A stretch of DNA of 64,000 nt from Candidatus Anderseniibacteriota bacterium (GCA_016197005.1 JACPWO010000004.1:70305-134304); one strand, 5' to 3'. Counted from the stretch's first letter, positions 11,713 through 51,631 are shown. Made by a program: numbers and translations. Notes: generated by a model not told the origin, from the letters alone.

Positions 11713-12840
11713 ATGGCAATAGTTATATCACAAAACGGCCGGAACGCAGTCAGGATCGATAAGTCCTCTTTTGAACAAGAGGATTACCTGCAGCGATACA
11801 TTTACGACAACCCCGACAGTATCCCGCTCTACGATATAAAGGAGGACATTCGCCTCCTTATTTTATCCCGCGAATTTCCTACCACCAGCGGCCCAATTGA
11901 CGCAATCGGCATCGACAAAGAGGGCGAGAACTACATCATCGAAACCAAGCTCTATAAAAATCCTGACAAGCGTACGGTCATCGCCCAAGCCCTGGATTAC
12001 GGCGCTGCGCTCTGGAAACACGCTAGCGACTTTAGCGAGTTTCTGGCCACGCTTGATACCCACACGCAGAAAGTATTCGGACTAAGTGCCGCCGATAAAA
12101 TTCAGGAGTTCTTCCAGCTGCCTACCGAAGACGCCATCGCCGTTATCGACAAAGCTCGCTCCAACCTCAACGATGGTGTTTTTCACTTCGTCGTTCTTAT
12201 GGACAAGCTGGATGACCGTCTCAAAGACCTCATCCTCTACGTCAACCAGAACAGCCAGTTCGATATCTACGCTGTCGAGCTGGAGTATTACAAGCACGAT
12301 ACCTACGAAATTATCATCCCGCGTATCTTCGGAGCAGAGGTTAAAAAGGATATCTCAACAAAGAAATCATCTGGACAACGCTGGGACTGGGATTCGTTTA
12401 AGCAACGCCTGGCCGAGTCCGGCGAGGAAGCAATCACCGCCGCCAGGCAAATCATCGACTGGGCAGAGGATAATAGTGTTTCCGTTGGCTGGATGACCAA
12501 CCAGATTGGCTCGTTTGTTCTTGGTTTTTCGGCTCCGGGCAAAAAAGTATTCTTTCCGTTCTCCGTGACCGGAGATGCTGTGATTTCCTGGAATACCCCG
12601 CACCAGGGGGACTACAGCCCAGTGCCATTTGATAGGCGGGAGAAGCGAGCCGAGATATTGGAGCGCCTGAGATCAATTAAGGGCGCAACTGTTGATGTGG
12701 AGAACGTGGATGGCTACAGCGGATTCAAACTGCCGCTCCAGGCGATGGTCAATGAAGAGACACGGCGTGAATTTTTCGCAGTGTGTTTATGGATCAAGGA
12801 AATGCTGAATCGACCGCTCCGATCCCATGTACAAACTTGA
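11713..12840 (+). CDS. PD-(D/E)xK nuclease-superfamily protein (NucS/Mrr-like core)
   Basis: 'GPIDAIGIDKEGENYIIETKLYKN' fits the D...(D/E)xK restriction-endonuclease-like motif. 375 aa; overlaps the next ORF by 14 nt. Confidence 0.4.
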   Translation: MAIVISQNGRNAVRIDKSSFEQEDYLQRYIYDNPDSIPLYDIKEDIRLLILSREFPTTSGPIDAIGIDKEGENYIIETKLYKNPDKRTVIAQALDYGAALWKHASDFSEFLATLDTHTQKVFGLSAADKIQEFFQLPTEDAIAVIDKARSNLNDGVFHFVVLMDKLDDRLKDLILYVNQNSQFDIYAVELEYYKHDTYEIIIPRIFGAEVKKDISTKKSSGQRWDWDSFKQRLAESGEEAITAARQIIDWAEDNSVSVGWMTNQIGSFVLGFSAPGKKVFFPFSVTGDAVISWNTPHQGDYSPVPFDRREKRAEILERLRSIKGATVDVENVDGYSGFKLPLQAMVNEETRREFFAVCLWIKEMLNRPLRSHVQT

Positions 12841-13435
12841 CGAGTATGAAGAGCTAAAGCGTAAGTATGGATCATATGGGAGTTGGGCAGTTTGGCGCCA
12901 TAACAATGAGAGCGATACATCAGTCATTGACGAGCATGTTGAGGAACTTCATTCTCGATTCATATTTCTGGGGTTGAACGTTTCTCAATCGCTAGGCAGC
13001 GCTGCCTGGGTAAATTTTCATGGCGGTAAGCATGCCCGGAAACTCAAGTATGCCCTCAACGATACAAAATTAAGGGGGTCGTACATTACCGATATTTTTA
13101 AAGACCTGCCCGCACCAAAATCAAGCGATATTGTGAAAATTTTGGCTGACGATCCGTCACTCATCACGCAGAATGTTGAGTTTTTTAAGCGGGAGATGGC
13201 AGACATCAGGGTGACAGCTGAGTCCGTGTTTGTTGTCCTCGGTACTCCCACCTCTTATATTTCAAGGTATTTTCGTACGTATTACCATCATAATTTCTCA
13301 AACCTCAAGTTCGTGAACTACTACCACTACGCATACTACGCTCTCACCGACAGTACATGGGTTGAGGGCCTCTGGAATGAACTTGGTGTAGAGGCTCGTT
13401 ATGACCATATCAGAGGGATGTATACCAAAGAGTAA
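12827..13435 (+). CDS. Hypothetical protein; weak resemblance to the UDG-superfamily motif arrangement
   Basis: 202 aa. 'FLGLNVSQSLG' and 'VVLGTPTSY' loosely resemble UDG motifs A and B; unverified. Confidence 0.3.
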   Translation: MYKLDEYEELKRKYGSYGSWAVWRHNNESDTSVIDEHVEELHSRFIFLGLNVSQSLGSAAWVNFHGGKHARKLKYALNDTKLRGSYITDIFKDLPAPKSSDIVKILADDPSLITQNVEFFKREMADIRVTAESVFVVLGTPTSYISRYFRTYYHHNFSNLKFVNYYHYAYYALTDSTWVEGLWNELGVEARYDHIRGMYTKE

Positions 13436-13472
13436 TAGGCAAAAAAGACGCCATAGCTCACCTCCACGGTGG

Positions 13473-13501
13473 TTGACGTGGCTGCTGTGGTCGCATAGGA
13501 T
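13473..13501 (+). promoter_or_regulatory. Sigma70-like promoter for the defense operon
   Basis: TTGACG (13473-13478), 17-nt spacer, TAGGAT (13496-13501). The ATG at 13508 lies about 7 nt after the -10 element, which would make the mRNA leaderless. Confidence 0.4.
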
Positions 13502-13507
13502 GACCAT

Positions 13508-13801
13508 ATGAGTACTCTTAAACCTATTGGTGATTTACCAGCAGCACAGCAGCAAGCGTTGTTTGTTATCCTCCGTTTTCACCGACCGGGGTTTAGAACT
13601 TCAGAGATCCGGGACAAAGTGGGTAAAGATACTAGTGGCCGTTCTATTGGGGCGGTGCTGGGTGCGCTCTATCGCAATGGTTATCTTGAGAAAATCGCGG
13701 GCGGTAGGGATAAGCTGTGGAAGTTGGCAGCTCAGGTGGAGGAAACGCGCAATGAAGTGGCGCAACAGTTAGTGGAAGTTAAGAGCTATTGGAGCAAATA
13801 A
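13508..13801 (+). CDS. Small winged-helix DNA-binding protein (putative operon regulator)
   Basis: 97-aa protein with a wHTH-like core ('RSIGAVLGALYRNGYLEKI'). It is the first gene of the coupled operon. Confidence 0.4.
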   Translation: MSTLKPIGDLPAAQQQALFVILRFHRPGFRTSEIRDKVGKDTSGRSIGAVLGALYRNGYLEKIAGGRDKLWKLAAQVEETRNEVAQQLVEVKSYWSK

Positions 13802-13805
13802 TTCT

Positions 13806-16800
13806 ATGAGTTCTTTTATCATCACGAACGAAGGCACGAAGAATCTTAAAGGCAGGTTGTCTGAGCTTATCCAGAACAGCAAAGAGCTCAAATTTCTAGT
13901 GGGCTTCTTTTATTTTTCGGGTATTCGCGAACTATATGAAAGTTTGAAGGATATGCCTAATATTCAGGTGGACGTTTTAGTTGGTCTTAATGTAGACCGG
14001 GCGGTACATGGAATTGTGGAGTATGGCGACCAGACAAAAAACCTCACCGATCGGGAACGCTTTACTCGTTTTCTTGAATCCGTATCACGGTCAATAAACT
14101 CGAACGATTTTGATACCGAAGATTTTTACACCCAGATCAAGTATTTCTTACATCTCATCAAAGATGGCCGTTTACGCATTCGCAAAACCTATAACCCAAA
14201 TCACGCCAAGTTGTATATCTTCAAAATCAAAGACGATATCAAGCATTTAAAAGAGGCATTTTTTATCACAGGTAGCAGCAACCTGACGCGAGCTGGTTTA
14301 ATGTCACAGGAGGAGTTTAATGTTGAAATAAGCGATCATGGGGTCGGTGATGCCGAGGATTATTTTAAGCAGTTATGGGAAGAAGCTGTCAGGATTACGG
14401 AAAACGATGAGTTCAAGCGGCAACTCATTGACCTCATTGAGCGTAAGACGCTAGTTGCCGGGATAACCCCTTTTGAGGCTTACGCCCTCGTGCTCAAAAA
14501 CTACCTTGATTCAATTAGCCAAAAGCAACTGCGGAAAAGTATTCCAGAATTGCTGTCTAAGAAAGGTTACCAGCCCTATAAATATCAGCTTGATGCAGTG
14601 TCACAGGCACTTACAATAATCGAGAACTATAACGGCGTAATCGTGTCCGATGTTGTGGGCCTTGGTAAAAGTATTATCGCTGGAATGATCGGCCGAAGTC
14701 TCAATAAACGGGGGATCATTATTTGTCCACCTGGTTTGATTGGTGATCCGAATAAGAAATCAGGATGGGAAAAATATAAAGAGGATTTTGAACTTTACGA
14801 TTGGGAGATCAGATCATTGGGTATACCGAGCTTAAAACATACGCTGAAGCTCGTTCAGGAAAGTGATGAGTATGAGGTAGTGATAGTAGACGAGGCGCAT
14901 CGGTTTCGGAATCAGGACACGGAGGCCTATGAGTTACTGAGCAATATTTGTCGCAATAAGATCGTGATTCTACTGACAGCGACTCCCTTTAATAACTCGC
15001 CGGCTGACATATTCTCTTTGCTCAAACTTTTTGTTATACCCGGCAGATCGAAAATCACACTGGATAACCATTTAGACACTAAGTTCAAGGTGTATAACAA
15101 CGAATTCGATAAATTGTCGTATATCAGAAAAAATCATAGTTCTGCTAACCCGCAGAAACGGGGAAAAGCCCTCGCCTTTTATGAGAGTCTATTTGAATCT
15201 AAGTCAGTTGAGCTGAACGAGGTGCAACGGCGAGCGAAATACTTAGCAAACAGTATTCGTTCTGTCATTGAGCCGGTGCTTATTCGGCGCAATCGCATCG
15301 ATCTCAAACAAGACCCAGAATATTCAAAGGAAGTGTACGAGCTCTCTCAGGTTGATGATCCCAAAGAGCTGTTTTTTGAACTGACAAAGGAGCAAGCGAA
15401 TTTTTATGACAGAGTGATCAACAAATACTTCGGCGAGGAAGGGGAATTTCGTGGAGCTATATACCGACCATTTGTATATGAGGAGGGAATTAAGCCAGAG
15501 GATCAAAAGCGCGTGTTGGGGCTGGAGAAGAATTTTGAGTTTCAATCCCAGTCACAGCTTTACGACTTTATGCGGCGTTTAGTCGTCAAACGATTTGAAA
15601 GCTCCTTTGGCGCTTTCCGTCAAACCATCATGAACCTCGAAATGGTGACGGAAAAAATGCAGCAGTTTATCAAAAACTCGGATGGCAAATTCATTCTTGA
15701 TCGGAAGCTAATCGAGAAGATTTATGAAGAAGAACTGGATGTCATCGAGGAGGAAATAATTAAGTTTGAACAGAAACTAGGCGAAGGTAACTACCCAAAA
15801 TCCTACAAAGTGTATGACGTGAACTCTTTTAAAGAAAAGCAGCGCTTTTATGCTGATATTGAGGCTGATCTTAAGTTATATAGAAAAGTCAGAGATGAAC
15901 TTGAAGACCTTAAACTGGTGGACAACGATCCAAAACTAGCCGGGCTTATTACCGAAATTCGGAATATATTGAATGCTGATCATCCCTTGAGTGAGCCAGA
16001 ACGCAAGGTTGTTGTTTTTACCGAGTATACGGATACGGCCACCTATTTAGAGGACGAACTCGAGAAGCACTTCCCAGAGCAACTTTTAACGGTGGGCAAG
16101 TCTCTCCCCGCCAGTCGCATCAACGAAATACTGATGAACTTTGATGCCAGCTACCACGAGCAAGAAAATAAGTACCGCGTGTTGTTAGCAACCGATAAGA
16201 TTTCTGAGGGGTTTAACCTCAATCGGGCGGGTGCGATCATTAATTATGATATCCCCTGGAATCCTACACGTGTTATCCAGCGGGTTGGTCGAATCAATCG
16301 TATCAGTAAGAAAGTCTTTGAGCGGCTTCATATATACAATTTCTTCCCTACTATACAGGGATCGGACATTGTGAAGAGTAGACAGATTGCGGCCGACAAG
16401 ATGTTTTTGATTCACAATACTCTTGGCGAGGACTCAAAAGTGTTTGAATCGGATGAGAAGCCGACAGCGGCTAAGCTGTTTACAAAAATCATGCGCAATC
16501 CGGAAGCGCATGAAGAGGCGAGCTTTCAAACTAAAATCCGACAGAAATATTTTGAACTCGAGAAAAGCGCGCCTGATATTATTGGCCGTGTCGCGACACT
16601 GCCATCGCGGGTAAAGGTAGCCAAGCGCTACGAGGCTGATAATCTTCTTGTGTTTATCAAGAAAGGTCTTGGGTTCTTCGTGCGCGGCATTGTTAAGGAG
16701 GATGTAGTCGAGGAAATGCTTTTTGAAGAAGTTATTCATCACATTGAGTGCTCTAAAGAAGAACGAGCGGTGCAACTGAGCGAACGCTTTTGGGGTAGCT

Positions 16801-17180
16801 ATGAAGCGGTCAAGGAGTATAAGGACAAGACGAAGATCGCATCCAGTGAATTGAGCCTGGAGAAGAAAGCACTGAATAATCTTAAATCGTTGCAGGGCGA
16901 CCCAAGCCCTGATTTAGAGCTTCTGCTGCCCTTCATCCGTGACTTAGTTGAGGATTTGCTAGATTACAAAACCCTACCTGACTACACCCTGCGCCGCATT
17001 GCTAAACTTGATACACAGACGCGGGTGCCAGAGAAGCGACTTAAGATGATCCGCGAATTACAAGGGGTTCAATCTCAACTTGGGGTCGGATTTATGGAAA
17101 TAACTAAGCGCCGATTGGGTGAACTTCAGAATGAAGTAATCATTGCCATAGAGAACGTCACCCACTATGAGCAGAGATAA
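13806..17180 (+). CDS. PLD-family (single HKD) nuclease domain fused to an SNF2-family helicase, 1124 aa
   Basis: HKD motif 'NHAKLYIFK...ITGSSNLT'. SNF2 motifs: I 'VVGLGKSIIAG', II 'IVDEAHRFRN', III 'LLTATPFNNS', V/VI 'INYDIPWNPTRVIQRVGRINRI'. Confidence 0.85.
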   Translation: MSSFIITNEGTKNLKGRLSELIQNSKELKFLVGFFYFSGIRELYESLKDMPNIQVDVLVGLNVDRAVHGIVEYGDQTKNLTDRERFTRFLESVSRSINSNDFDTEDFYTQIKYFLHLIKDGRLRIRKTYNPNHAKLYIFKIKDDIKHLKEAFFITGSSNLTRAGLMSQEEFNVEISDHGVGDAEDYFKQLWEEAVRITENDEFKRQLIDLIERKTLVAGITPFEAYALVLKNYLDSISQKQLRKSIPELLSKKGYQPYKYQLDAVSQALTIIENYNGVIVSDVVGLGKSIIAGMIGRSLNKRGIIICPPGLIGDPNKKSGWEKYKEDFELYDWEIRSLGIPSLKHTLKLVQESDEYEVVIVDEAHRFRNQDTEAYELLSNICRNKIVILLTATPFNNSPADIFSLLKLFVIPGRSKITLDNHLDTKFKVYNNEFDKLSYIRKNHSSANPQKRGKALAFYESLFESKSVELNEVQRRAKYLANSIRSVIEPVLIRRNRIDLKQDPEYSKEVYELSQVDDPKELFFELTKEQANFYDRVINKYFGEEGEFRGAIYRPFVYEEGIKPEDQKRVLGLEKNFEFQSQSQLYDFMRRLVVKRFESSFGAFRQTIMNLEMVTEKMQQFIKNSDGKFILDRKLIEKIYEEELDVIEEEIIKFEQKLGEGNYPKSYKVYDVNSFKEKQRFYADIEADLKLYRKVRDELEDLKLVDNDPKLAGLITEIRNILNADHPLSEPERKVVVFTEYTDTATYLEDELEKHFPEQLLTVGKSLPASRINEILMNFDASYHEQENKYRVLLATDKISEGFNLNRAGAIINYDIPWNPTRVIQRVGRINRISKKVFERLHIYNFFPTIQGSDIVKSRQIAADKMFLIHNTLGEDSKVFESDEKPTAAKLFTKIMRNPEAHEEASFQTKIRQKYFELEKSAPDIIGRVATLPSRVKVAKRYEADNLLVFIKKGLGFFVRGIVKEDVVEEMLFEEVIHHIECSKEERAVQLSERFWGSYEAVKEYKDKTKIASSELSLEKKALNNLKSLQGDPSPDLELLLPFIRDLVEDLLDYKTLPDYTLRRIAKLDTQTRVPEKRLKMIRELQGVQSQLGVGFMEITKRRLGELQNEVIIAIENVTHYEQR

Positions 17181-19911
17181 ACTACAGGAGATTATCGATC
17201 AGTTCGATGCACATAAGATCGGCATTTTTTTTCGAACGCGTAGCGATGCCTTCGCAGAAGCACGGGAGCCACTTCAGGAATATAATGATGCAGTTTTTAG
17301 TGACTTTGAGCGTCTAGGAGAGTTTCGCTTTGACGAGACGCAGCGCCTCATTGTAGTTGCTGTCCGGGTGGGAGGTAACTTAACGGAGCGCTCAAGTAAG
17401 AAGGCACAGTACGACAAGGCTAAACGAATACTCAAGGATTTGGATGTCTTTGAGGGTGGAATATTTATTTTTTATGATACGGCTGGCAGTTTTCGATTTA
17501 GTTTGGTTTACGAGCGGAGTATAGGTACGCGGCGCACATGGAATAATTTTAGGCGTTTTACATACTTCGTTAGCAAGGAACTGCCCAATAAGACTTTCAT
17601 TAATCGAATTGGAGAAGGAGATTTCTCCAGCCTAAACAAAATAAGGGAAGCCTTCTCCATCGCGGCAGTTACGAATGATTTTTACCAGAGTTTTGTTCCG
17701 TACTTCGAGAAGATTTCAAAAGCTGCCCGAAGCACTATCGATGACAATGTTCGTAAGAAATTAGCACGAGATTTCGCCTTACTATTTGTAATTAGGGTAA
17801 TCTTTATTGGCTTTATTCAGAAGCGTAAATGGATTGGTGACGATGAGCAGTTTCTGCGGCATTTTTGGGAGGAGTATCGGCAGCAGTCCATGGGCGAGAA
17901 CCATTTTTACAAGCATTGGCTGGAGCCCCTTTTCTTTGAGGCACTAAACTCTCCCATTGGCCGGAAGGTGAAGTATGGTAATAATACATTTTCGCCGGCA
18001 ACAGAATCGGCGCTGCAAATGGCACCGTACTTGAATGGTGGTTTGTTTAAGCGCAAGAGAGGCGTCGATGACCAGAGTCTATTCATACCAGATGACGTTA
18101 TTGGTGAACTTTTTGATTGGTTATTCTCATACAACTTTACGATTGAGGAAAATACGCTCTATGACGAAGAACTGGAGTTAAACCCTGAGTTTTTAGGCAT
18201 TATTTTTGAACGACTCGTAAACAAGGCTGATGGAGCCGTGTATACGCCTCGGGTCGAAGTGGATTTTATGTGCCGCTTAAGCCTTGTTAAGTGGCTGGAC
18301 AAAAATACGCCTGAAGACATCCATTATCGAGATCTTTATGAGCTATTTTTTAGTGAGGTAGGTCGGGGACGCGGTGAGGATACCGACCAGAAGAAAGGAA
18401 GTTTTTCCGAACGTCAGGCACGAGAAATACTTGAACATCTTGAATCAATAACTATTTGTGATCCAGCAGTCGGTTCAGGAGCATTTCCTGTAGGAATGCT
18501 CCATATTATCGACGAGGTAGAGGAACACCTACGGCTGAAGATTAGTGACCCGGTAGCGCACCAAACGGCCTTTGATCGGAAAAAGCGCATTATAGGCTCT
18601 TCACTCTACGGCGTTGAGGTAAAAGAGTGGGCGGTCTGGATCACCCAACTGCGCTTGTGGATCACTCTTTTCATCGATGCACCAGATGATTTACGAAACT
18701 CGCTTGAGCCTATTTTACCTAGTCTTGATTTCAAGGTGCGTGCCGGAGACTCGTTGCTGCAGCGAATAGGCACAAAAATATTTCCCGTCGCTGGACATGC
18801 CAATGTATCGCAAGGTCTTAAGAAAAAGATTACTGAACTCAAGAAGCTCAAACTGGATTACTTTCAGAATAAGGCAGATCGTGATTTTATTATTCGCCAG
18901 CGCGAGCTAGCGCTGTACAGGGATATTCTGAATGCAGAAATCGACGAGCTCACTAAGACGCTTCGCATCCTAAGGGGCATAAAGCCAGATCAGCAGTCGT
19001 CCCTTTTTAGCAAGGAAATTCAACAACCAACACAGGCGCCATTAAGTCTCAATGCTGAGGAGGTTAAAAAGATTGAAAACCAAATTGCCGAGCTTCAAGG
19101 CCAGCAACGGTCTCTGTCTGAAGACCATCCCTTAATTTGGAATATTGAATTTGCTGAGATTTTTGCTGATCGGGACGGGTTCGATATTATTATTGGCAAC
19201 CCTCCGTACGTCAGGCAAGAGGATATAGGAGATCCCAATGGCAAGATTAAAGATCCCAAAGAATACAAAAAATTATTGCAGGAAATGGTACGGACTGATT
19301 TCCCGCGACAGTTTCCGAAGGGAGAAAAGATAGATGCTAAATCTGACCTCTATACCTATTTTTATATCCGATCGCTTAAGCTATTAAATCCGAACGGTGT
19401 ACTTACCTTTATCTGTTCAAACTCATGGCTCGATGTGGGTTATGGCGTTTGGCTACAAAAGTTTTTGCTCAAAAATGCGCCGATTCAATTCATTATTGAT
19501 AATCACGCCAAGCGTAGCTTTGAAGCGGCTGATATAAACACCATTATCTCAGTGATTGAGGCGCCACAAAAAAAGATTGATCCAGGCCATGTAGTTAAAT
19601 TTGTTGCCTTCAAAAAATCTTTTGAGGAAGTCATTTTTACTGAAAATTTGCGTGCTATCGATGAGGCTGATGCTGTTGTAAAGAATGAACGCTACCGGGT
19701 ATATCCCATGGCAACACAAAATTTGTGGGAGTCTGGTATGGAGTACTCCAGTGTCGAGCAAAAGAAGCTATCCGGCGGTCGGTACATTGGAGATAAGTGG
19801 GGAGGTAAATACCTGCGTGCACCTGATATTTATTTCACCATTTTGCGCAAGGGCGGTGTATTAACTAGCCAAAACTATGAAAGCACGTCACGAGAGAGAG
19901 AGAGAGAGTAA
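17167..19911 (+). CDS. Eco57I/PglX-type N6-adenine DNA methyltransferase, N-terminal and catalytic portion (914 aa; ORF closed by a stop right after a (GA)8 tract)
   Basis: Motif X 'AVYTPRVEVDFMCR', motif I 'ICDPAVGSGAFPVGML', motif IV 'IIIGNPPYVRQ'. The stop TAA at 19909 sits immediately after the (GA)8 run. Confidence 0.85.
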   Translation: MSRDKLQEIIDQFDAHKIGIFFRTRSDAFAEAREPLQEYNDAVFSDFERLGEFRFDETQRLIVVAVRVGGNLTERSSKKAQYDKAKRILKDLDVFEGGIFIFYDTAGSFRFSLVYERSIGTRRTWNNFRRFTYFVSKELPNKTFINRIGEGDFSSLNKIREAFSIAAVTNDFYQSFVPYFEKISKAARSTIDDNVRKKLARDFALLFVIRVIFIGFIQKRKWIGDDEQFLRHFWEEYRQQSMGENHFYKHWLEPLFFEALNSPIGRKVKYGNNTFSPATESALQMAPYLNGGLFKRKRGVDDQSLFIPDDVIGELFDWLFSYNFTIEENTLYDEELELNPEFLGIIFERLVNKADGAVYTPRVEVDFMCRLSLVKWLDKNTPEDIHYRDLYELFFSEVGRGRGEDTDQKKGSFSERQAREILEHLESITICDPAVGSGAFPVGMLHIIDEVEEHLRLKISDPVAHQTAFDRKKRIIGSSLYGVEVKEWAVWITQLRLWITLFIDAPDDLRNSLEPILPSLDFKVRAGDSLLQRIGTKIFPVAGHANVSQGLKKKITELKKLKLDYFQNKADRDFIIRQRELALYRDILNAEIDELTKTLRILRGIKPDQQSSLFSKEIQQPTQAPLSLNAEEVKKIENQIAELQGQQRSLSEDHPLIWNIEFAEIFADRDGFDIIIGNPPYVRQEDIGDPNGKIKDPKEYKKLLQEMVRTDFPRQFPKGEKIDAKSDLYTYFYIRSLKLLNPNGVLTFICSNSWLDVGYGVWLQKFLLKNAPIQFIIDNHAKRSFEAADINTIISVIEAPQKKIDPGHVVKFVAFKKSFEEVIFTENLRAIDEADAVVKNERYRVYPMATQNLWESGMEYSSVEQKKLSGGRYIGDKWGGKYLRAPDIYFTILRKGGVLTSQNYESTSRERERE

Positions 19912-20917
19912 GGCTGGCGCCGCTAGGAACCCTGGCGCACGTTCGGCGCGGCTTCACAACCGGGGCGAACGAGTTCTTCTATCTGAAGGATATAACCGAT
20001 CAGCTAAACTCGTCCGATTAGGTGATGTTGCTGATGTTCGTTTTGGTATTAAAACTGGGGCAAATGAATTTTTCTTTCTTGAGGATATAACTGAATCTAT
20101 GAATTTTGAGGATGTTAAGAACGAGATAAAAAATTTGGGTCAATATAAAACGTTGGCTCAAATTAAGGCCGCTGGTCTTTGTATTACTCAAAACGATGCC
20201 GGGGATTATTGGCTAATAGAGAAGAAATTTTTAAAGCCTGCAGTTAAAAGTCCTCGCGAATGCAACAATATTTTAGTTGATCAAATTAAACTCAAATATA
20301 AGTTGCTGCTGTGCTCAAAAACAAAAGAAGAATTAGAAAATACAGCAACTTTGCAATATATAAGCTGGGGCGAGAAGGAGGCGTTTGATCAAAGGGCGAG
20401 CACAAAAGGTAGAAACAGATGGTGGGATTTGGGAAAAAGGAAACCCGCTGGATTGAATTTCAATTATTTAATAAACGACGTTGGTGATACTTATGTTGGC
20501 TCAGTCTTTGTAAGTGATAATTTTCATGAGATTCATACAGAAAAACACCTGGAAGTGTTTCTGAACTCCACTGTTTTTTGGCTATTCCAAAATTTGTCTG
20601 GGAGGACTAGTTTTGGCGGCGGGTTGTTAAAAATACAAACCTATGAGCTTGAAAGAATATTTGTGTTAGAGGTTGAAAATAAATTTGATTTTCCGGTACT
20701 TAAGCGAGCACCAAAATCAGTATTTAAAGAATGCGGAATTAATCCCGAATCAACCATTCTTATTGAAGAGCAAGAACCAAATCCGCTACCGGATCGCGCA
20801 GAGCTGGATAAAGTTGTTTTCGACGCGTTGGAGCTCACCGAAGATGAACGCAAGGACGTATATCGCGCTGTTTGCAGCCTTGTCTGGAACAGGATTAGTA
20901 AAGCACAGAGTGTGTAA
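19877..20917 (+). CDS. Methyltransferase C-terminal target-recognition portion (TaqI_C-like), separated from the catalytic part by a frameshift at the (GA)8 tract
   Basis: 'LGDVADVRFGIKTGANEFFFL' is the TaqI-like C-terminal specificity-domain signature of Eco57I/PglX-type enzymes. The two ORFs together (~1250 aa) match PglX-class length. Confidence 0.7.
   Translation: MKARHERERESKAGAARNPGARSARLHNRGERVLLSEGYNRSAKLVRLGDVADVRFGIKTGANEFFFLEDITESMNFEDVKNEIKNLGQYKTLAQIKAAGLCITQNDAGDYWLIEKKFLKPAVKSPRECNNILVDQIKLKYKLLLCSKTKEELENTATLQYISWGEKEAFDQRASTKGRNRWWDLGKRKPAGLNFNYLINDVGDTYVGSVFVSDNFHEIHTEKHLEVFLNSTVFWLFQNLSGRTSFGGGLLKIQTYELERIFVLEVENKFDFPVLKRAPKSVFKECGINPESTILIEEQEPNPLPDRAELDKVVFDALELTEDERKDVYRAVCSLVWNRISKAQSV
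19892..19907 (+). repeat. (GA)8 dinucleotide simple-sequence repeat at the junction of the two methyltransferase ORFs; candidate phase-variation tract
   Basis: 'cacGAGAGAGAGAGAGAGAGtaa' read directly. Upstream ORF frame is 1 mod 3 and downstream ORF frame is 2 mod 3; (GA)9 would fuse them. Confidence 0.9.
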
Positions 20918-20919
20918 AT

Positions 20920-21471
20920 ATGAGCGACGAATCATTACCACCGTTCGTTGGCGAAAGTGCTTTATCGCCTATTCGATTGACTGAAGAACAAGAAGATCTG
21001 TGCCAACGGCTGGATGACTGGCATGGGCTGGATGGGCTCAAAGTTAAACCATCAGAGATGTTTCGCGGAGCGGTTTATGCGATGCGACAAGAATGCAAAA
21101 GCAATCCCGATCGGCTTGCCCAAGCAGCAAATTCTCTTCGTGAAATTCTTTATCCATTTCAGAGCCCCCAGGTAAAAAATGTATCTGAAAAGCAAGAAAA
21201 GGCGTTTAAAAAATACGGGTCAGTTCGAGTAGATGAGGAGTTCTTTAAAAAAAGTGTAAAGCCGCTCTATGAAGACCTTAATGACGTTGCTCATCACGGA
21301 GTTGCAGCAAAGAGGATCGACTTTTTAACTATTACAGACGCGGAGCTTGTAAAATTATTAGCAGACTTTGAGAAAATTATGCTTGCTGCATTGGCGCGGC
21401 AACTTGATGTTCATCAAGAGATCGATGAGTTTTTAACGGCTGGGCCCGATCAGGTGGGCACACATAATTAA
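20920..21471 (+). CDS. Hypothetical 183-aa helical protein (operon component)
   Basis: Start is 3 nt after the upstream stop; no recognisable motifs. Confidence 0.4.
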   Translation: MSDESLPPFVGESALSPIRLTEEQEDLCQRLDDWHGLDGLKVKPSEMFRGAVYAMRQECKSNPDRLAQAANSLREILYPFQSPQVKNVSEKQEKAFKKYGSVRVDEEFFKKSVKPLYEDLNDVAHHGVAAKRIDFLTITDAELVKLLADFEKIMLAALARQLDVHQEIDEFLTAGPDQVGTHN

Positions 21472-21474
21472 TTT

Positions 21475-24474
21475 ATGAATAAGAAAAGTCAATCTCAGAG
21501 CAAAGCTGAAAAAGTTCGAGAACTTATTGGTTTGAATTTTGATGCACGACAGTATTTTTTCACCAAAGCTGATGAACAATTGCTCGGCTGGCTATGGGCA
21601 AATGGATTGCTTGATGCAATAAAAGAGAAGCCTGCAGATCAAACGCGCTATTGGTATAGAACGCCAGAACTTCACTATCTCGCAACCGTTGCTAAAAAAG
21701 AACCGGCAAAGGTGGTTGATATTATGCTACAGGTACCAATATCACCCGAGACATTCAGCCCGGAGGTAACTGATAGATTTCTTCGCATATGTGTTGATCT
21801 GCCGGCCGACCAGCTTTCTCGACTAGTGACTAAAATTCGGGATGAGAAATGGGTAAATTTAATGGGAGGATTCAATCAGTGGGGGTTTGAATACAATAAA
21901 ATGCTGCAAACACTTGCGGGGGCAAAGGACTATAACAGTATGCTGGTTTTAGCAGAAGCAATGTTGGCGGTGCGTCCTAAGAAGGAAGTTGCAGAAATAG
22001 AGCACCGTTGGCGCGTAAGCGAAAATTGTTTCTATATCAAAGACCTTTCAGAAACCGGTATATTCGATAAACTCACCTCAGTCGATGATCAGAAAGTTGA
22101 TGTAGCACTTGGTCTGGCTGTTAGAACCATCGGAGCAGTGATCAACTTGGGGGATCCGTCAAAGGATAAGGAGTTTTCAGTCGATGATCATCTCTGCCTT
22201 ATTGATGTCGATTTTTTCTCACTAAAGGCGCAACAGAAAAAGTATTCATCAGATCGGGAAGATATGCGCGAACTAGCGGTTACGATAAAGGTTCTGACGC
22301 AGCGTCTAATAGGAAATAGATGTGATAAAGTCGACGAAGTTCGTTCGCTATATACTACGCACTTTAATTCGTTGCCCGATAGTCAGGCTGTGTGGCGGCT
22401 GCGTTTGTTTGTTCTTAGTTTGTGCCCCAAGGTATTTGCAAGTGATTTAAAAACCGCCTTCTATAAAATATTTGAGACCGAAAAATACCAGGAATACACA
22501 TTAGGCGCCGAATTTTCTCGGGCACTGCGTGCCGGTTTTTCGGCCTTAGCTGAATCAGATCAGCGCAATTATGTGAAGCAGGTATTGGCATACTTCGGCC
22601 AGCCAGGCACGGATAAAGAAAAAAATGAACCACGGAAGCATTCCGGATGGAAAATCTTATCGAGCATCTACTTACATCTTACGGATGAGGAGAAAGCGCA
22701 ATGCGAACGGGTATTTGGCAGAACGTGTGACGAAAAATATGAACCTGAGCCGGCTATTGGGACTATGCGTGGTGGTTCCGTCAGACCCCGAGGCCCTATA
22801 ACGCCTGAGGAGTTTGGAGAGCTTCCAATTTCAGAAATTGCGAATAATCTTCGCACTTTGTGGACACCACAAAGACTGCGTGAGCAAAATACTGGAGATG
22901 ATTTTCTTAACCCCCTCAATGCGGAGGGCGCTGGTGACTTATTTAAAAATGATATCCCTAAACGGTTACAAGACTATGCCAATGACGCAAAACTGTTTTT
23001 CGAGAGAGATGTACTCGACCAGAACTATACCTATGCATTTATGCGTGGGCTACAAGAAGCAATACATGCGAACAGAGAGGAAGCAGCCAAAATTACGTGG
23101 GAAGGTTTGATTACACTCTTACAGAATATTACCGAGGCCGGGACGACCAAACCTTTTGATCAAAGAAAAAGAGAGCGCAGTTTTCATGATGGCTGGCTTA
23201 CCAGCTGGGATGAAGTACATTCAGTTATGGCTGATGTTATAAAAGAGTTATTAAGTGAGTCTGGCGGGCACAAAGTAATCAATTATTCCAAGCATCGTGC
23301 AGATTTATTGCCAATTTTAAGTTACCTTCTTGCATATCCTGATCCGGTACCAGCCGATGAAAAGATTGAAACTGCAACAAGTACCACTACGTCTCCAGGA
23401 GAGGAAACACAAATCGCCGATCCTTTTTCAATGGCCATAAACTCAGTGCGCGGTCGCGCGTTTGAGGTTCTACCGCTTATTGCCTATCTGGATGGCAAGA
23501 GGTTTTCTAAAGAGGATCAGGTAAAAATCTCCCCTGACGTAAAGCAATTATATGAGACAACTCTCAGCAATGAAAATACGAGAGCAGTTATGTTTCTTTT
23601 CGGTCATTATCTACCCACATTCTATTTCCGCGATAAAGTTTGGATAGGGCAACTCTTGCCGCAAATCTTTCCGGATCAACCAGAAAAAGAATATCTTTAT
23701 ACCGCTGCGTGGGAAGGGTACTTGGCTAATAATCTTTATGAAGAGTTATTTTTTGATCCCGCAATCCAGAAGATATATGAGCGCGGACTCGTCCTTCCCA
23801 ATGTTGATGATTTGAAACAGAAGCGCTTCAAAGAACCAGATGAGGGCATTGCTTCTCATTTTGGTTTGGCTTTTATGTATTACGAAGGATTTGGATTTGA
23901 CCACCCACTACTCACGGCATTTTGGAGTAAAAATGATCCGGAACAACATGCAGACTTTATCAGTTTTCTTGGAAGAGCATTTGTATCAGGTGATAACGCT
24001 CAGGCAAACGAATTGTTAAAGAATGAGCCGCGTGCGAAAGCAAGATTGATAGAAGTTTGGGATTGGATGCTTGAGCATTATACGGATATTCGGCCACTTA
24101 CTGAATTCGGCGTTTGGATCAATTTGAGAAAAAACATATTTGACACTCGATGGCTTGCTGAGCATATCAGAAAGACTCTTGAGAAAACGAAAGGAAAACT
24201 AGATTGGGATTACGGACTCATGATGTCCATTGAGCAATTAGCAAAACTTGCACCAGAGGACACGCTTATCATTGCCCGGTTATATTTACTTGAAGGTGGG
24301 GTGCGTACAGGTGGTAATCGCGCACCAATTCATTTAGATCAAGAATGGTTTGAGGCAATGAAGACGCTGTATGGTAATAGCAGTACACGATCAGGTAGTT
24401 ACGCTCTCATTAATGACCTTGTTCAGGATGGAGGGATCACCTTCTGGAAGCTTAAAGAAGTAATTAACGATTAA
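21475..24474 (+). CDS. Large (999 aa) alpha-helical protein of unknown function (operon component)
   Basis: No Walker A or helicase, nuclease or phosphatase motifs found by eye. Translationally coupled on both sides. Confidence 0.5.
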   Translation: MNKKSQSQSKAEKVRELIGLNFDARQYFFTKADEQLLGWLWANGLLDAIKEKPADQTRYWYRTPELHYLATVAKKEPAKVVDIMLQVPISPETFSPEVTDRFLRICVDLPADQLSRLVTKIRDEKWVNLMGGFNQWGFEYNKMLQTLAGAKDYNSMLVLAEAMLAVRPKKEVAEIEHRWRVSENCFYIKDLSETGIFDKLTSVDDQKVDVALGLAVRTIGAVINLGDPSKDKEFSVDDHLCLIDVDFFSLKAQQKKYSSDREDMRELAVTIKVLTQRLIGNRCDKVDEVRSLYTTHFNSLPDSQAVWRLRLFVLSLCPKVFASDLKTAFYKIFETEKYQEYTLGAEFSRALRAGFSALAESDQRNYVKQVLAYFGQPGTDKEKNEPRKHSGWKILSSIYLHLTDEEKAQCERVFGRTCDEKYEPEPAIGTMRGGSVRPRGPITPEEFGELPISEIANNLRTLWTPQRLREQNTGDDFLNPLNAEGAGDLFKNDIPKRLQDYANDAKLFFERDVLDQNYTYAFMRGLQEAIHANREEAAKITWEGLITLLQNITEAGTTKPFDQRKRERSFHDGWLTSWDEVHSVMADVIKELLSESGGHKVINYSKHRADLLPILSYLLAYPDPVPADEKIETATSTTTSPGEETQIADPFSMAINSVRGRAFEVLPLIAYLDGKRFSKEDQVKISPDVKQLYETTLSNENTRAVMFLFGHYLPTFYFRDKVWIGQLLPQIFPDQPEKEYLYTAAWEGYLANNLYEELFFDPAIQKIYERGLVLPNVDDLKQKRFKEPDEGIASHFGLAFMYYEGFGFDHPLLTAFWSKNDPEQHADFISFLGRAFVSGDNAQANELLKNEPRAKARLIEVWDWMLEHYTDIRPLTEFGVWINLRKNIFDTRWLAEHIRKTLEKTKGKLDWDYGLMMSIEQLAKLAPEDTLIIARLYLLEGGVRTGGNRAPIHLDQEWFEAMKTLYGNSSTRSGSYALINDLVQDGGITFWKLKEVIND

Positions 24475-24476
24475 AT

Positions 24477-25235
24477 ATGTCCGAATACTACAACCCAAAT
24501 CGAGGCTCCAAATGGAATTACGGCGGTGATCAATGGAAGCTCTCTCGCTCCAAGATTGATCTCTTTCTCGAATGTCCTCGCTGTTTTTATATCGACAACA
24601 AGCTCGGCGTAAAGCGTGTACCAGGCTTTCCTTTTGCGTTAAATAGTGCAGTCGATCATCTCCTTAAGCTGGAATTTGATATCCATCGTGCTAATGGAGA
24701 GCAGCACCCGCTACAAAAAGAATACGGCATTGATGCCCGGCCAGTAGCGCATGAAGAATTGGACGAGTGGCGCTATAACTTCGGTGGGGTTAAACATCTG
24801 CATAAACCAACTGGCATGCTGGTCACAGGAGCCATTGATGACTTATGGATCAATGGCAATGAAGAATATGTAGTGGTTGACTATAAGGCCACAGCCAAAG
24901 AAGAAGCGGTGAAAGAACTCGATAAGGAATGGCAAGAGGGCTACAAGCGCCAAATGGAAGTGTATCAGTGGCTGTTGCGCCAGAATGGACTCAAGGTTTC
25001 TGATACTGGTTATTTCGTGTACTGCACCGGAAAGTTAGACGGTAAAGCGTTTGATAAACGCATTGATTTTGATGTCCATCTTATTGCCTACGAAGGAAAC
25101 GATGATTGGGTGGAGGGTACATTACTAAAGATTAAGGAATGCCTGGAAGAGAATGATGTACCAGAATCCGGCCCTGGTTGTGACCATTGCTCATATTGGA
25201 ATGCTCGTCGTTTATACGAACCTGAATCAAAATAA
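24477..25235 (+). CDS. Cas4/RecB-like PD-(D/E)xK nuclease with a four-Cys cluster
   Basis: N-terminal 'CPRC'; 'GAIDDLW...VVVDYKAT' (D...DxK); 'RQMEVYQW' (QxxxY); C-terminal 'CDHCSYW'. Confidence 0.7.
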   Translation: MSEYYNPNRGSKWNYGGDQWKLSRSKIDLFLECPRCFYIDNKLGVKRVPGFPFALNSAVDHLLKLEFDIHRANGEQHPLQKEYGIDARPVAHEELDEWRYNFGGVKHLHKPTGMLVTGAIDDLWINGNEEYVVVDYKATAKEEAVKELDKEWQEGYKRQMEVYQWLLRQNGLKVSDTGYFVYCTGKLDGKAFDKRIDFDVHLIAYEGNDDWVEGTLLKIKECLEENDVPESGPGCDHCSYWNARRLYEPESK

Positions 25236-25239
25236 AAAT

Positions 25240-51623: not shown

Positions 51624-51631
51624 ATATTGCC

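What the first reader, a model, noticed from the sequence alone, without database searches (positions are those of the whole stretch)
19877..19911. (GA)8 dinucleotide tract splits the methyltransferase into two ORFs: predicted slipped-strand phase variation of the modification/specificity subunit
The catalytic MTase ORF (frame 1 mod 3) reads RERERE through 'GAGAGAGAGAGAGAGAG' and stops at TAA 19909. The TRD-encoding ORF starts at ATG 19877 in frame 2 mod 3 and reads the same tract as ERERES. Adding one GA unit, giving (GA)9, joins the two into a single ~1250-aa PglX-sized protein. Losing one unit, giving (GA)7, shifts into the third frame and terminates after about 40 codons. Dinucleotide tracts of eight or more units are classic contingency loci. 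Phase-variable pglX (by a G-tract) is documented for the Streptomyces Pgl/BREX system, so an ON/OFF-switching defense methylase is plausible. A sequencing or assembly error at the repeat is the alternative.
Basis: seen in the sequence. Interest (0 to 1): 0.8.

Follow-up and report, generated by a model that had tools for sequence, protein, structure and literature searches.

The report
GA repeat interrupts defence methyltransferase gene

Summary
GAGAGAGAGAGAGAGAG lies at 19892-19908, a TAA follows at 19909, an ATG lies at 19877, and (GA)9 gives one 1250-aa ORF. A tract this long is not chance and not an assembly error: two sequencing runs and two assemblers give identical DNA.

- The gene is not PglX/BREX. 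It is an Eco57I-family N6-adenine methyltransferase paired with an HKD-SNF2 helicase, in a Candidatus Andersenbacteria (CPR) genome.
- The tract lies in 151 nt that no relative has. This patch also holds a GC-rich second copy of the first 31 codons of the DNA-recognition domain, in the third frame.
- (GA)7 is therefore not a dead end. It gives a 950-aa ORF ending where natural two-ORF relatives end, followed by a 272-aa C-terminal ORF (ATG 20099).
- (GA)9 fuses the halves only through about 33 out-of-frame residues.
- No alternative tract length exists in public data, and none of 57 relatives has a repeat there.

Best reading (about 0.45): a hypermutable repeat in a recombination-built junction, currently in its out-of-frame state and reversible by slippage. 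Main rival (about 0.3): a recombination scar with a plain frameshift. Phase-variable methylases with (AG)n followed by TAA are already known, so this is a variant of a known kind.

The parts
13806..17180 (+). HKD(PLD)-SNF2 helicase, 1124 aa. It is the conserved neighbour of the methyltransferase and its presumed nuclease/translocase partner.
   Evidence: Pfam PLDc_2, SNF2-rel_dom and Helicase_C. PADLOC DrmD-like and 'HKD+Snf2'. The same gene lies next to the methyltransferase in L002, L003, L004, L006 and L007.
17167..19911 (+). N-terminal methyltransferase ORF as it stands with (GA)8: 914 aa, with catalytic motifs intact. It ends at a TAA one codon after the tract and lacks the start of the recognition domain.
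   Evidence: Pfam Eco57I at 1.6e-31 and MmeI_Mtase. DPAVGSGAF at residue 432 and NPPY at residue 678. About 60% identity to single-chain homologs of 1115-1200 aa.
19855..19891 (+). Lineage-specific linker (GVLTSQNYESTS...) that follows the conserved 'TILRKG' and precedes the tract. No homolog has it.
   Evidence: Homologs read ...TILEKGKDKLVRLGD... with only 2 residues here.
19892..19908 (+). (GA)8 plus G dinucleotide tract, the candidate slippage site.
   Evidence: Identical in two runs. None of 57 relatives has a dinucleotide tract of 5 or more units near the junction.
19909..19911 (+). TAA stop in frame 0, immediately after the tract.
19911..20003 (+). Copy 1: a GC-rich second copy of the first 31 codons of the recognition domain (RLAPLGTLAHVRRGFTTGANEFFYLKDITDQ). 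It is in frame 2 and is reached from the N-terminal ORF only with 4, 7 or 10 units.
   Evidence: It matches the end of the L004 split-type N-ORF at 23/31 residues. Against copy 2 it shows 18/31 aa, 55/93 nt and 9/31 third-position identity, with GC3 of 0.74 against 0.16.
20019..20021 (+). TAG stop of frame 2. It ends the 950-aa ORF of the (GA)7 state 5 codons after 'DITDQ', at the point where natural split-type N-ORFs end.
   Evidence: Compared with L003, L004, L034 and L070.
20006..20098 (+). Copy 2: the resident, AT-rich copy of the same 31 codons (KLVRLGDVADVRFGIKTGANEFFFLEDITES). It is in frame 1 and continuous with the rest of the recognition domain.
   Evidence: It matches the family consensus at 22-23 of 31 residues. 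It forms strands 2-4, 10-13 and 24-27 of the modelled domain.
19877..20917 (+). The 346-aa ORF in frame 1. Its first 43 residues are frame-shifted read-through of the linker, the tract and copy 1. True homology starts at 20006.
   Evidence: No Shine-Dalgarno-like sequence lies upstream of ATG 19877.
20099..20917 (+). The 272-aa C-terminal ORF (MNFEDVKNEIKNLG...). It is equivalent to the stand-alone C-ORFs of split-type relatives and matches NCBI's annotation.
   Evidence: P0121. 58% identity to the L003 C-ORF, and residues 1-37 align only with split-type C-ORFs. GAGGA lies 13 nt upstream. It is the only start codon in frame 1 after 19877.
19912..20005 (+). Predicted stable RNA three-way junction formed by copy 1, beginning 3 nt after the TAA. 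Its role is unexplained.
   Evidence: MFE -41.1 kcal/mol, z = -3.4, and 0 of 200 shuffles as stable. That is the lowest 1-2.5% of 160 control windows, and the equivalent segments of copy 2, L003 and L004 are unstructured. No Rfam match.

Best explanation
The gene encodes an Eco57I-family (gamma-class) N6-adenine DNA methyltransferase. It belongs to an uncharacterised defence module whose conserved partner is an HKD-SNF2 helicase, in a Candidatus Andersenbacteria (CPR) genome.

At the boundary between the conserved catalytic part and the DNA-recognition part, recombination between diverged alleles has left a 151-nt mosaic patch. The patch consists of a unique linker, a (GA)8 tract, and a GC-rich second copy (copy 1) of the first 31 codons of the recognition domain, placed in tandem before the resident copy (copy 2).

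The tract is long enough to slip during replication, so its unit number decides which frame the ribosome enters:
- 5, 8 or 11 units (the present allele): an immediate TAA. The 914-aa catalytic protein lacks the first three strands of its recognition domain, and the enzyme is most likely off or crippled.
- 4, 7 or 10 units: copy 1 is read in frame, and the ORF stops where natural two-ORF relatives stop. The result is a 950-aa N-protein plus a 272-aa C-protein from ATG 20099. This architecture is conserved in four diverged relatives, so it is probably the working form.
- 6, 9 or 12 units: a 1250-aa fusion in which copy 1 is read out of frame as about 33 junk residues before copy 2. Whether this product works is unknown.

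Shown: the anatomy, the frame arithmetic, the homology of each piece, and the reality of the tract. Inferred: that slippage occurs at a useful rate, that (GA)8 is off, that the (GA)7 form is on, and that switching the methylase off also disarms restriction because the helicase-nuclease has no recognisable specificity domain of its own.
For: - Tract and frames.
- Non-random tract: 8 units against a maximum of 6 in 200 simulations.
- Real sequence: two runs and two assemblers, 100% identical.
- Intact homologs read ...TILEKGKDKLVRLGDIAEVRFGIKTGANEFFYL... straight through, so 19855-20005 (151 nt, 3n+1) is extra DNA.
- Copy 1 is a conserved coding remnant. It matches the end of the L004 N-ORF at 23/31 residues.
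- Natural split relatives L003, L004/L005, L034 and L070 end ...FFY(V/L)(E/M)D(V/I)TD..E* and restart M(K/N)F.E(I/V)..KIKNLG. This matches the (GA)7 product and the ATG 20099 ORF.
- The motif supplies three strands of a confidently modelled recognition domain, pLDDT 88, which resembles the DNA-binding domains of CamA, M.BseCI and BpuSI.
- Both halves are otherwise intact, with catalytic motifs present, so any inactivation is recent or reversible.
- Precedents: (AG)12 followed by TAA is off and (AG)10 is on in M. mycoides mod (PMC3498834). The survey threshold is 5 or more dinucleotide units (PMC5909438). A Type IIG enzyme in C. jejuni is phase-variable (PMC4889913).
Against: - No length polymorphism was seen. 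Two runs and two NCBI accessions all carry (GA)8. Products of 6, 7, 9 or 10 units are absent from about 15 billion proteins. These are consensus assemblies of what looks like a single population, so minority alleles would not be visible.
- The tract is unique to this lineage. None of 57 relatives has one near the junction, so there is no evidence that it has been maintained by selection.
- It lies in a recombination scar, where a repeat could expand without consequence.
- The out-of-frame allele is the consensus in both libraries.
- The activity of any of the three products is untested.
- Simple frameshifts at the same linker in relatives L002 and L008 show that plain breakage at this boundary also happens.
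Confidence: 0.45

Rival explanations
1. Recombination scar plus ordinary frameshift. A swap of recognition-domain alleles left the duplicated patch, and the gene is simply broken, either a recent pseudogene or on its way to loss. The GA tract is a by-product and is not used as a switch.
For: - The 151-nt patch is absent from all relatives and joins two copies that are saturated at synonymous sites (9/31 third-position identity), so it was built from diverged alleles.
- The tract is not conserved in any relative.
- Every assembly shows the out-of-frame length.
- Relatives L002 and L008 are broken by plain 1-nt frameshifts in the same linker.
Against: - Both halves are otherwise free of lesions over 914 and 303 codons, with catalytic motifs and the conserved C-terminal tail intact.
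- A 17-nt perfect dinucleotide tract is very improbable by chance and is intrinsically unstable by the criteria used in the field, so the frameshift is reversible in principle whether or not it is selected.
- Both neighbouring tract lengths give long, homologous products.
Confidence: 0.3
2. The present (GA)8 allele is itself functional as a two-subunit enzyme. The 914-aa catalytic protein would pair with the 346-aa protein, which carries motif copy 2, so the tract length matters little.
For: - Splitting this family at the domain boundary is tolerated. Four diverged relatives keep both halves intact as separate ORFs, with other genes between them.
- The 346-aa ORF contains a complete, near-consensus motif followed by the whole recognition domain.
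Against: - In every natural split form the motif stays on the N-terminal protein and the cut lies after it. Here the cut would lie before it.
- ATG 19877 has no Shine-Dalgarno-like sequence and lies 32 nt upstream of the N-ORF stop.
- The first 43 residues of the 346-aa product would be frame-shifted junk.
- NCBI annotates only the 272-aa form, which lacks the motif.
Confidence: 0.1
3. Translational recoding. Ribosomes would shift by 2 nt on the GA repeat, helped by the stop codon and the stable RNA structure directly downstream, and so make the 950-aa or 1250-aa product from the (GA)8 mRNA without any DNA change.
For: - The layout resembles a frameshift site: overlapping ORFs, a repeat, a stop codon, and a structure starting 3 nt later with z = -3.4 and 0 of 200 shuffles as stable.
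- On (GA)n, shifts of plus or minus 2 nt allow perfect re-pairing of the tRNAs (inference).
Against: - There is no canonical X XXY YYZ slippery heptamer.
- The spacer between repeat and structure is shorter than the 5-9 nt typical of known sites (established knowledge).
- The structure is not conserved in relatives, and there is no Rfam match.
- One window at the 1-2% tail of a background distribution is weak evidence.
Confidence: 0.04
4. Sequencing or assembly artefact: a wrong tract length, or a chimeric join of two strains' alleles.
For: The source is a metagenome-assembled genome. Contigs of several relatives break exactly at this boundary (L006, L007, L009/L010, L022), which shows the region is hard to assemble in mixed populations.
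Against: - The NCBI contig and the Logan assemblies of two separate runs are 100% identical over 10.7-21 kb, tract included.
- From my own reading of the sequence, copy 1 and copy 2 share no exact stretch longer than about 9-11 nt, too short to cause a k-mer mis-join; they are only 55/93 nt identical.
- The 17-nt tract is shorter than usual assembly k-mers.
Confidence: 0.03

Closest known systems
Phase-variable Type III mod genes of Mycoplasma with (AG)n/(GA)n tracts, for example M. mycoides mmyCImod (PMC3498834), and phasevarion methyltransferases generally (PMC5909438)
   Same: A dinucleotide AG/GA tract inside the coding region of an N6-adenine methyltransferase of a restriction-like system. 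A TAA follows directly after the repeat in the out-of-frame state. A change in unit number restores a long ORF. The tract exceeds the 5-unit criterion.
   Different: - Enzyme family: Eco57I/gamma-class with an HKD-SNF2 partner, not Type III Mod/Res.
- Position: about 2.7 kb into the gene at the catalytic/recognition boundary, not near the 5' end (nt 320 in mmyCImod).
- In Mycoplasma both alternative frames hit conserved stops. Here both alternative frames are open and homologous.
- In Mycoplasma the tract is conserved, with different lengths, across species. Here no relative has it.
- Switching was observed experimentally there and not here.
Phase-variable Type IIG restriction-modification enzyme of Campylobacter jejuni NCTC11168 (PMC4889913)
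   Same: A large single-chain methyltransferase of the Type IIG/Eco57I kind whose expression is switched by a simple repeat within the ORF.
   Different: That case is described for a hypermutable homopolymeric tract; Campylobacter phase variation depends on G/C homopolymers (PMC8355987 abstract). Here the repeat is a dinucleotide. No nuclease domain was identified in the protein here. The organism here is uncultivated and environmental, not a pathogen.
PglX of the Streptomyces Pgl / BREX systems (G-tract phase variation; PMC4365076 citing Sumby and Smith 2003)
   Same: A defence-associated N6-adenine methyltransferase of about 1200 aa in which repeat length controls expression.
   Different: This protein is not a family member. 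It scores 43 bits against a cut-off of 500 for BREX-1 PglX. No PglZ, BrxC, BrxL, PglW or PglY is present. Its recognition domain is structurally nearer to CamA, M.BseCI and BpuSI than to BrxX/PglX, which match only at E above 0.2.
DISARM class 1 (DrmMI methyltransferase with DrmD SNF2 helicase, DrmA, DrmB, DrmC)
   Same: An Eco57I-type N6-adenine methyltransferase adjacent to an SNF2 helicase, with a PLD/HKD nuclease domain in the module.
   Different: No DrmA or DrmB (DUF1998) is present. The HKD domain is fused to the SNF2 helicase. The DrmD NCBIfam score is 160 against a cut-off of 610. The methyltransferase matches generic Type IIG models better than DrmMI models (1.5e-49 against 7e-23).
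Split members of the same methyltransferase family (L003, L034, L004/L005, L070)
   Same: The window's C-terminal part is most similar to their C-ORFs (58% to L003). Copy 1 is most similar to the ends of their N-ORFs (23/31 to L004). With 7 units the window would have the same N-ORF stop point and the same C-ORF start.
   Different: Those loci carry one or two unrelated cargo genes between the halves (DUF3800, or a protein with a hydrophobic N-terminus), and they have no repeat and no duplicated motif. The window has no cargo gene. Instead it has a second motif copy fused in frame to the C-part.

Membership tests
Simple-sequence-repeat contingency (phase-variable) locus | A repeat tract within the ORF at or above the accepted length threshold (5 or more dinucleotide units) | tested here: met
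   (GA)8 plus G at 19892-19908. Threshold taken from PMC5909438.
Simple-sequence-repeat contingency (phase-variable) locus | A change of unit number moves between a truncated product and a full-length product | tested here: met
   In silico, 8 units give 914 aa, 7 units give 950 aa plus a separate 272-aa ORF, and 9 units give 1250 aa.
Simple-sequence-repeat contingency (phase-variable) locus | Tract-length polymorphism within a population or between close isolates | tested here: inconclusive
   Two runs and two NCBI accessions all have 8 units, and products of the other lengths are absent from the protein collection. These are consensus assemblies of one population, and raw reads could not be inspected.
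Simple-sequence-repeat contingency (phase-variable) locus | The tract is conserved at the same site, with varying length, in related genes | tested here: not met
   None of 57 family loci has a dinucleotide tract of 5 or more units within 60 nt upstream to 400 nt downstream of the anchor. The nearest relative is only about 61% identical.
Simple-sequence-repeat contingency (phase-variable) locus | A reversible change of phenotype (methylation or defence) linked to tract length | not testable with these tools
   This needs methylome data or expression of the alleles.
BREX / Pgl PglX methyltransferase | Sequence membership in a PglX family model | tested here: not met
   NCBIfam scores: BREX_1_MTaseX 43.2 against 500, BREX_6 30.2 against 900, BREX_2 24.2 against 400.
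BREX / Pgl PglX methyltransferase | A gene neighbourhood containing PglZ and BrxC/PglY (plus BrxL or PglW) | tested here: not met
   None was found by Pfam, PADLOC or NCBIfam among the ORFs from 10876 to 27843. The neighbours are an HKD-SNF2 helicase, a Cas4-like PD-(D/E)XK protein, and 183-aa and 999-aa proteins of unknown function.
Type IIG restriction-modification enzyme (Eco57I/MmeI-like) | A gamma-class N6-adenine methyltransferase domain with motifs I and IV, followed by a C-terminal recognition domain | tested here: met
   Pfam Eco57I at 1.6e-31 and MmeI_Mtase. DPAVGSGAF and NPPY are present. The C-part folds like the DNA-binding domains of CamA, M.BseCI and BpuSI.
Type IIG restriction-modification enzyme (Eco57I/MmeI-like) | An endonuclease domain fused in the same polypeptide | tested here: inconclusive
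   No nuclease family hit in residues 1-410. The nuclease candidate is the separate HKD-SNF2 protein. No structure-based test of the N-terminus was run.
DISARM class 1 | DrmA helicase and DrmB (DUF1998) present alongside DrmMI, DrmD and DrmC | tested here: not met
   No DUF1998 or full DrmA-type match in the module. DrmD scores 159.6 against a cut-off of 610.
Split two-ORF subfamily of this methyltransferase | The N-ORF ends just after ...FFY.xD(V/I)TD..., and the C-ORF starts M(K/N)F.E(I/V)..KIKNLG | tested here: inconclusive
   The C-ORF start is met (ATG 20099, MNFEDVKNEIKNLG). The N-ORF end is met only in the 4/7/10-unit frame, not in the present (GA)8 allele.
Split two-ORF subfamily of this methyltransferase | Cargo gene(s) embedded between the two halves | tested here: not met
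   Only 77 nt separate the frame-2 stop (20021) from ATG 20099, and this stretch is occupied by motif copy 2.
Programmed ribosomal frameshift site | A canonical slippery sequence plus a conserved downstream stimulatory structure | tested here: not met
   A structure is present (z = -3.4). There is no X XXY YYZ heptamer, the structure is not conserved in relatives, and there is no Rfam match.

The most novel reading that the evidence does not exclude
The tract is a three-state switch that does more than turn the gene on and off. It would move one methyltransferase between an off state (8 units), a two-subunit form that uses motif copy 1 (7 units), and a single-chain form that uses motif copy 2 behind a long linker (9 units). 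The stable RNA structure encoded by copy 1 might also modulate translation at the junction. This would be a repeat-driven choice between alternative architectures of a defence enzyme, in a CPR bacterium, where no contingency locus has been described (no paper found).
Probability: 0.1. Interest if true: 0.75.

Novelty: new variant of a known kind. Interest (0 to 1): 0.45.

Why it matters
If the tract does slip at a useful rate, this would be a contingency locus in a Candidate Phyla Radiation bacterium. These are tiny-genome, probably episymbiotic organisms for which my literature search found no report linking restriction-modification to phase variation. It would show that population-level bet-hedging of phage defence, or of epigenetic state, operates there as it does in host-adapted pathogens.

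The anatomy also shows how recognition domains of this widespread but uncharacterised methyltransferase family (HKD-SNF2-associated, found in many phyla) are exchanged, and that the enzyme tolerates being cut at one precise point.

If the tract does not vary, the locus is simply a recently broken defence gene, which is ordinary.

Tried and rejected
- E. coli genomes, megablast of 19400-20500: no match.
- Exact-DNA scans for the GC-rich copy 1, to find other samplings of the locus at any tract length or a donor: 0 hits in JGI metagenome contigs and 0 in GTDB species-representative genomes.
- Recent in-situ tandem duplication as the origin of the two motif copies: rejected. Third-position identity is 9/31 and GC3 is 0.74 against 0.16.
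- Copy 1 as clearly foreign DNA: not established. Its 96-nt GC content (59%) is at the 97th percentile of the window but is not extreme. Gene-average GC3 in the window reaches 0.63, and 31 codons are too few to decide.
- BREX/PglX and DISARM membership: rejected. The BREX-related systems of PMC12839542 are built on BrxC/PglZ and TUDOR-SNF2 helicases, which are absent here.
- Recombinase-driven shuffling between alternative recognition-domain cassettes: tblastn and blastn found no further copy of the motif or recognition domain anywhere in the 64 kb on either strand.
- Family-wide repeat at the junction: none found.
- A claim that frameshifts cluster at this linker: not made. My search query, the 914-aa N-terminal part, favours members truncated exactly there.
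- Local Pfam scan of the C-part at E up to 1: no hit, although the precomputed annotation lists PF22837 M_Eco57I_C. I relied on the structure model instead.
- Sequence search of the PDB: only a remote M.BseCI match for the N-part and nothing for the C-part.
- Promoter and terminator scan of 19500-20400: nothing above shuffled expectation.


Full report
**1. The observation**

The tract is GAGAGAGAGAGAGAGAG at 19892-19908. The ORF 17167-19911 (914 aa) reads ...QNYESTSRERERE and stops at TAA 19909-19911. The ORF 19877-20917 (346 aa) starts at ATG 19877 one base out of phase and reads MKARHERERES.

I rebuilt the products for 4 to 12 units:

| Units | Product |
|---|---|
| 5, 8, 11 | 912, 914, 916 aa |
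| 6, 9, 12 | one ORF of 1248, 1250, 1252 aa |
| 4, 7, 10 | 948, 950, 952 aa |

The tract is not chance. It is the only dinucleotide run of 5 or more units in 64 kb, and the next longest has 4 units. The longest run in 200 first-order Markov simulations was 6 units, and about 5e-5 (GA)8 tracts are expected per window.

It is not an assembly error. The exact 914-aa protein belongs to a Candidatus Andersenbacteria MAG contig of 165,569 bp. Independent Logan assemblies of two runs, SRR12113416 and SRR12113417, are 100% identical to the window over 21,041, 14,049 and 10,745 bp, including (GA)8.

**2. What the gene is**

The 914-aa ORF carries the Pfam Eco57I methylase domain (1.6e-31) and MmeI_Mtase. 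Motif I (DPAVGSGAF, residue 432) and motif IV (NPPY, residue 678) are both present.

It is not PglX:
- NCBIfam BREX-1 PglX scores 43 bits against a cut-off of 500.
- PADLOC prefers generic Type IIG models (1.5e-49) over DrmMI (7e-23) and PglX (1e-10).
- No PglZ, BrxC or BrxL is present.

The upstream gene (13806-17180) is a PLD/HKD-SNF2 helicase. It is DrmD-like but far below the DrmD cut-off (160 against 610). The same helicase sits beside the methyltransferase in relatives L002, L003, L004, L006 and L007, so the pair is the conserved core. DrmA and DrmB are absent, so the module is not DISARM class 1.

Homologs of the N-terminal part are about 60% identical. They are nearly all single proteins of 1115-1200 aa and occur in many phyla, including CPR groups, Omnitrophota, Elusimicrobia, Smithella and Ignavibacteria.

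I modelled the C-terminal 303 residues with a 25-sequence alignment (pLDDT 88, pTM 0.75). The model resembles the DNA-recognition domains of CamA, M.BseCI and the Type IIG enzyme BpuSI (Foldseek E from 5e-5 to 6e-4). MmeI and BrxX/PglX match only weakly, at E above 0.2.

**3. The junction is a mosaic, not a simple frameshift**

Intact homologs read straight through ...GDKWGGKYLRAPDIFFTILEKGKDKLVRLGDIAEVRFGIKTGANEFFYL....

In the window, TILRKG ends at 19854 in frame 0, and KLVRLGDVADVRFGIKTGANEFFFL starts at 20006 in frame 1. The 151 nt between them (3n+1) has no counterpart in any relative. It consists of:

| Piece | Coordinates | Note |
|---|---|---|
| Unique linker (GVLTSQNYESTS) | 19855-19891 | frame 0 |
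| (GA)8 plus G tract | 19892-19908 | |
| Copy 1 (RLAPLGTLAHVRRGFTTGANEFFYLKDITDQ) | 19911-20003 | frame 2 |

Copy 1 is a second copy of the first 31 codons of the recognition domain, lying 95 nt before the resident copy (copy 2).

The two copies share 18/31 residues but only 9/31 third codon positions, and their GC3 is 0.74 against 0.16. So this is not a recent duplication in place. It is a joint between diverged alleles, that is, a recombination product. No donor and no other sampling of copy 1 exists in the JGI metagenome or GTDB representative collections. No further copy of the motif or domain occurs in the window.

In the structural model the duplicated motif supplies strands 2-4, 10-13 and 24-27 of the recognition domain. 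A protein that stops before the motif therefore lacks part of that domain.

**4. What the relatives show**

The closest relatives of the C-terminal part are stand-alone ORFs of about 280 aa. Their loci reveal a split subfamily:
- In L003, L034 (Elusimicrobia), L004/L005 and L070 (Parcubacteria), the N-terminal ORF runs through the motif and stops just after it (...FFYVEDVTDLIEE*, ...FFYLMDITDNVQE*, ...FFYVEDVTDKIEDE*).
- One or two cargo genes follow.
- The C-ORF then starts MKFTEVKPKIKNLG / MKFSEIKSKIKNLG / MNFVEIQAKIKNLG.

The cargo differs between loci. L003 and L034 carry DUF3800 proteins that are 72% identical to each other. L004 and L070 carry proteins with hydrophobic N-termini that show no detectable similarity to each other.

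Intact members of the same subtype (L046, L048) read continuously across that point. The split is therefore a clean, conserved cut, and the two-protein form is presumably functional.

The window fits this subfamily in three ways:
- Its ATG 20099 ORF (MNFEDVKNEIKNLG..., 272 aa, as NCBI annotates it) is 58% identical to the L003 C-ORF.
- Residues 1-37 of that ORF align only with split-type C-ORFs.
- Copy 1 is closest to the ends of split-type N-ORFs (23/31 with L004).

With 7 units the window would therefore encode a 950-aa N-protein that ends 5 codons after DITDQ (stop at 20019-20021), followed by the 272-aa C-protein. This is the architecture of these relatives.

With 9 units the fusion reads copy 1 out of frame (SKAGAARNPGARSARLHNRGERVLLSEGYNRSA) before reaching copy 2. 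About 52 residues then sit where homologs have two.

**5. Does the tract vary?**

I could not inspect raw reads. Every available assembly has 8 units: two runs, plus two NCBI accessions for each product. The products of 6, 7, 9 and 10 units are absent from a collection of about 15 billion proteins. These are consensus sequences of what looks like one clonal population, with 100% identity over 21 kb, so they say nothing about minority alleles.

No relative has a dinucleotide tract near the junction (0 of 57 loci), and the nearest relative is 61% identical. There is therefore no comparative evidence that the tract has been maintained.

Two relatives are broken by plain single-base frameshifts in the same linker: L002 within a T7 run and L008 next to a T5 run. 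My search favoured members truncated exactly there, so I draw no statistical conclusion from this.

**6. Mechanism and rivals**

By the field's criteria, a tract of 5 or more dinucleotide units marks a methylase gene as potentially phase-variable (PMC5909438). A near-identical layout has been tied to activity. In M. mycoides mmyCImod, (AG)12 runs into a TAA directly after the repeat and the strain has no activity, while an (AG)10 clone is in frame and active (PMC3498834). A Type IIG enzyme in C. jejuni (PMC4889913) and pglX in Streptomyces (PMC4365076) are further precedents.

My best explanation (about 0.45) is a slippage-prone tract in a recombination-built junction. It is now in its out-of-frame state. 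The 7-unit two-protein form is the likely working state, and the 9-unit fusion is of uncertain function.

Because the HKD-SNF2 partner has no recognisable specificity domain, I infer that loss of the methyltransferase also disarms restriction, which would make the off state viable.

The rivals, with confidences:

| Rival | Confidence |
|---|---|
| Scar with an ordinary frameshift that is never used as a switch | 0.3 |
| The present allele already works as a 914 + 346 aa pair | 0.1 |
| Translational recoding | 0.04 |
| Sequencing or assembly artefact | 0.03 |

**7. An unexplained detail**

Copy 1 folds into a three-way junction that begins 3 nt after the TAA. Its energy is -41.1 kcal/mol, with z = -3.4, and none of 200 shuffles is as stable.

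Only 2 of 160 control windows reach that z-score. None of 12 equally GC-rich windows goes below -0.94. The equivalent segments of copy 2, L003 and L004 are unstructured. There is no Rfam match.

The layout recalls frameshift sites, but there is no canonical slippery heptamer and no conservation in relatives. I report it as unexplained.

**8. Verdict**

Repeat-driven switching of restriction-type methylases is well known, including (AG)n followed by TAA. The new elements are:
- the host, a CPR bacterium;
- the enzyme family, an uncharacterised HKD-SNF2-associated methyltransferase;
- the position of the tract at the catalytic/recognition boundary;
- the fact that both alternative frames lead to homologous products, because of a duplicated motif.

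Without read-level or experimental data, switching remains a prediction. Interest is 0.45.

Noticed in passing
L003:3874-5001; L034:5793-6732; L004:4177-5001 (same in L005); L070:5352-5957: A subfamily of this methyltransferase is cut at one identical point, after ...D(V/I)TD... and before M(K/N)F.E(I/V)..KIKNLG, with different cargo genes embedded between the halves. L003 and L034 carry DUF3800 proteins (72% identical to each other) plus a small ORF. L004 and L070 carry 254-aa and 201-aa proteins with hydrophobic N-termini and no mutual similarity. It looks like a gene-insertion hotspot inside a defence gene whose two halves stay intact.
   Followed up: partly
window 19912-20005: The GC-rich motif copy folds into a stable three-way RNA junction starting 3 nt after the TAA (z = -3.4, 0 of 200 shuffles as stable). 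This is in the lowest 1-2.5% of control windows. The structure is absent from copy 2 and from relatives, and there is no Rfam match.
   Followed up: partly
window 11528-11656 (+): A LOOT RNA (Rfam RF03000, 70 bits against a gathering score of 46.4; fold z = -5.1) lies between a tyrosine-recombinase-like ORF (10876-11457, 193 aa) and the first gene of the defence module (11713).
   Followed up: no
L002:4988 (T7); L008:about 3065-3075 (T5): Two relatives are split into overlapping N-terminal and C-terminal ORFs by single-base frameshifts in the same inter-domain linker, at or next to homopolymer runs. These could be sequencing errors, pseudogenes or homopolymer switches.
   Followed up: partly
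L006, L007, L009/L010/L021, L022 (contig ends): Several relatives' contigs end within 2 to 260 nt after the conserved anchor at the catalytic/recognition boundary. This fits assemblies breaking where strains share the conserved part but differ in the recognition domain.
   Followed up: no
window 17225-17232: A T8 run lies 58 nt into the methyltransferase ORF, at the conserved FF codons. It is one of only two homopolymers of 8 or more bases in the 64 kb. It is in frame here.
   Followed up: no
window 20920-25235: Downstream of the methyltransferase lie a 183-aa ORF with no family (a weak SduA_N hint, E 0.011), a 999-aa ORF whose C-terminal half weakly resembles Dsr1 (PADLOC 4.6e-16), and a Cas4-like PD-(D/E)XK protein (252 aa). 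They may be further parts of the same defence island. Relatives carry different genes at this position, for example SLFN_AlbA_2 and AAA_21 proteins.
   Followed up: no
window about 51601-51702: In the folding calibration, a 102-nt segment here had z = -4.4, the second most structured of 160 windows. It has no Rfam match at gathering threshold.
   Followed up: no
L058:5685-5696: An A12 homopolymer lies inside the recognition-domain coding region of an intact relative from an uncultured Ignavibacteriaceae bacterium. It is long enough to be slippage-prone.
   Followed up: no
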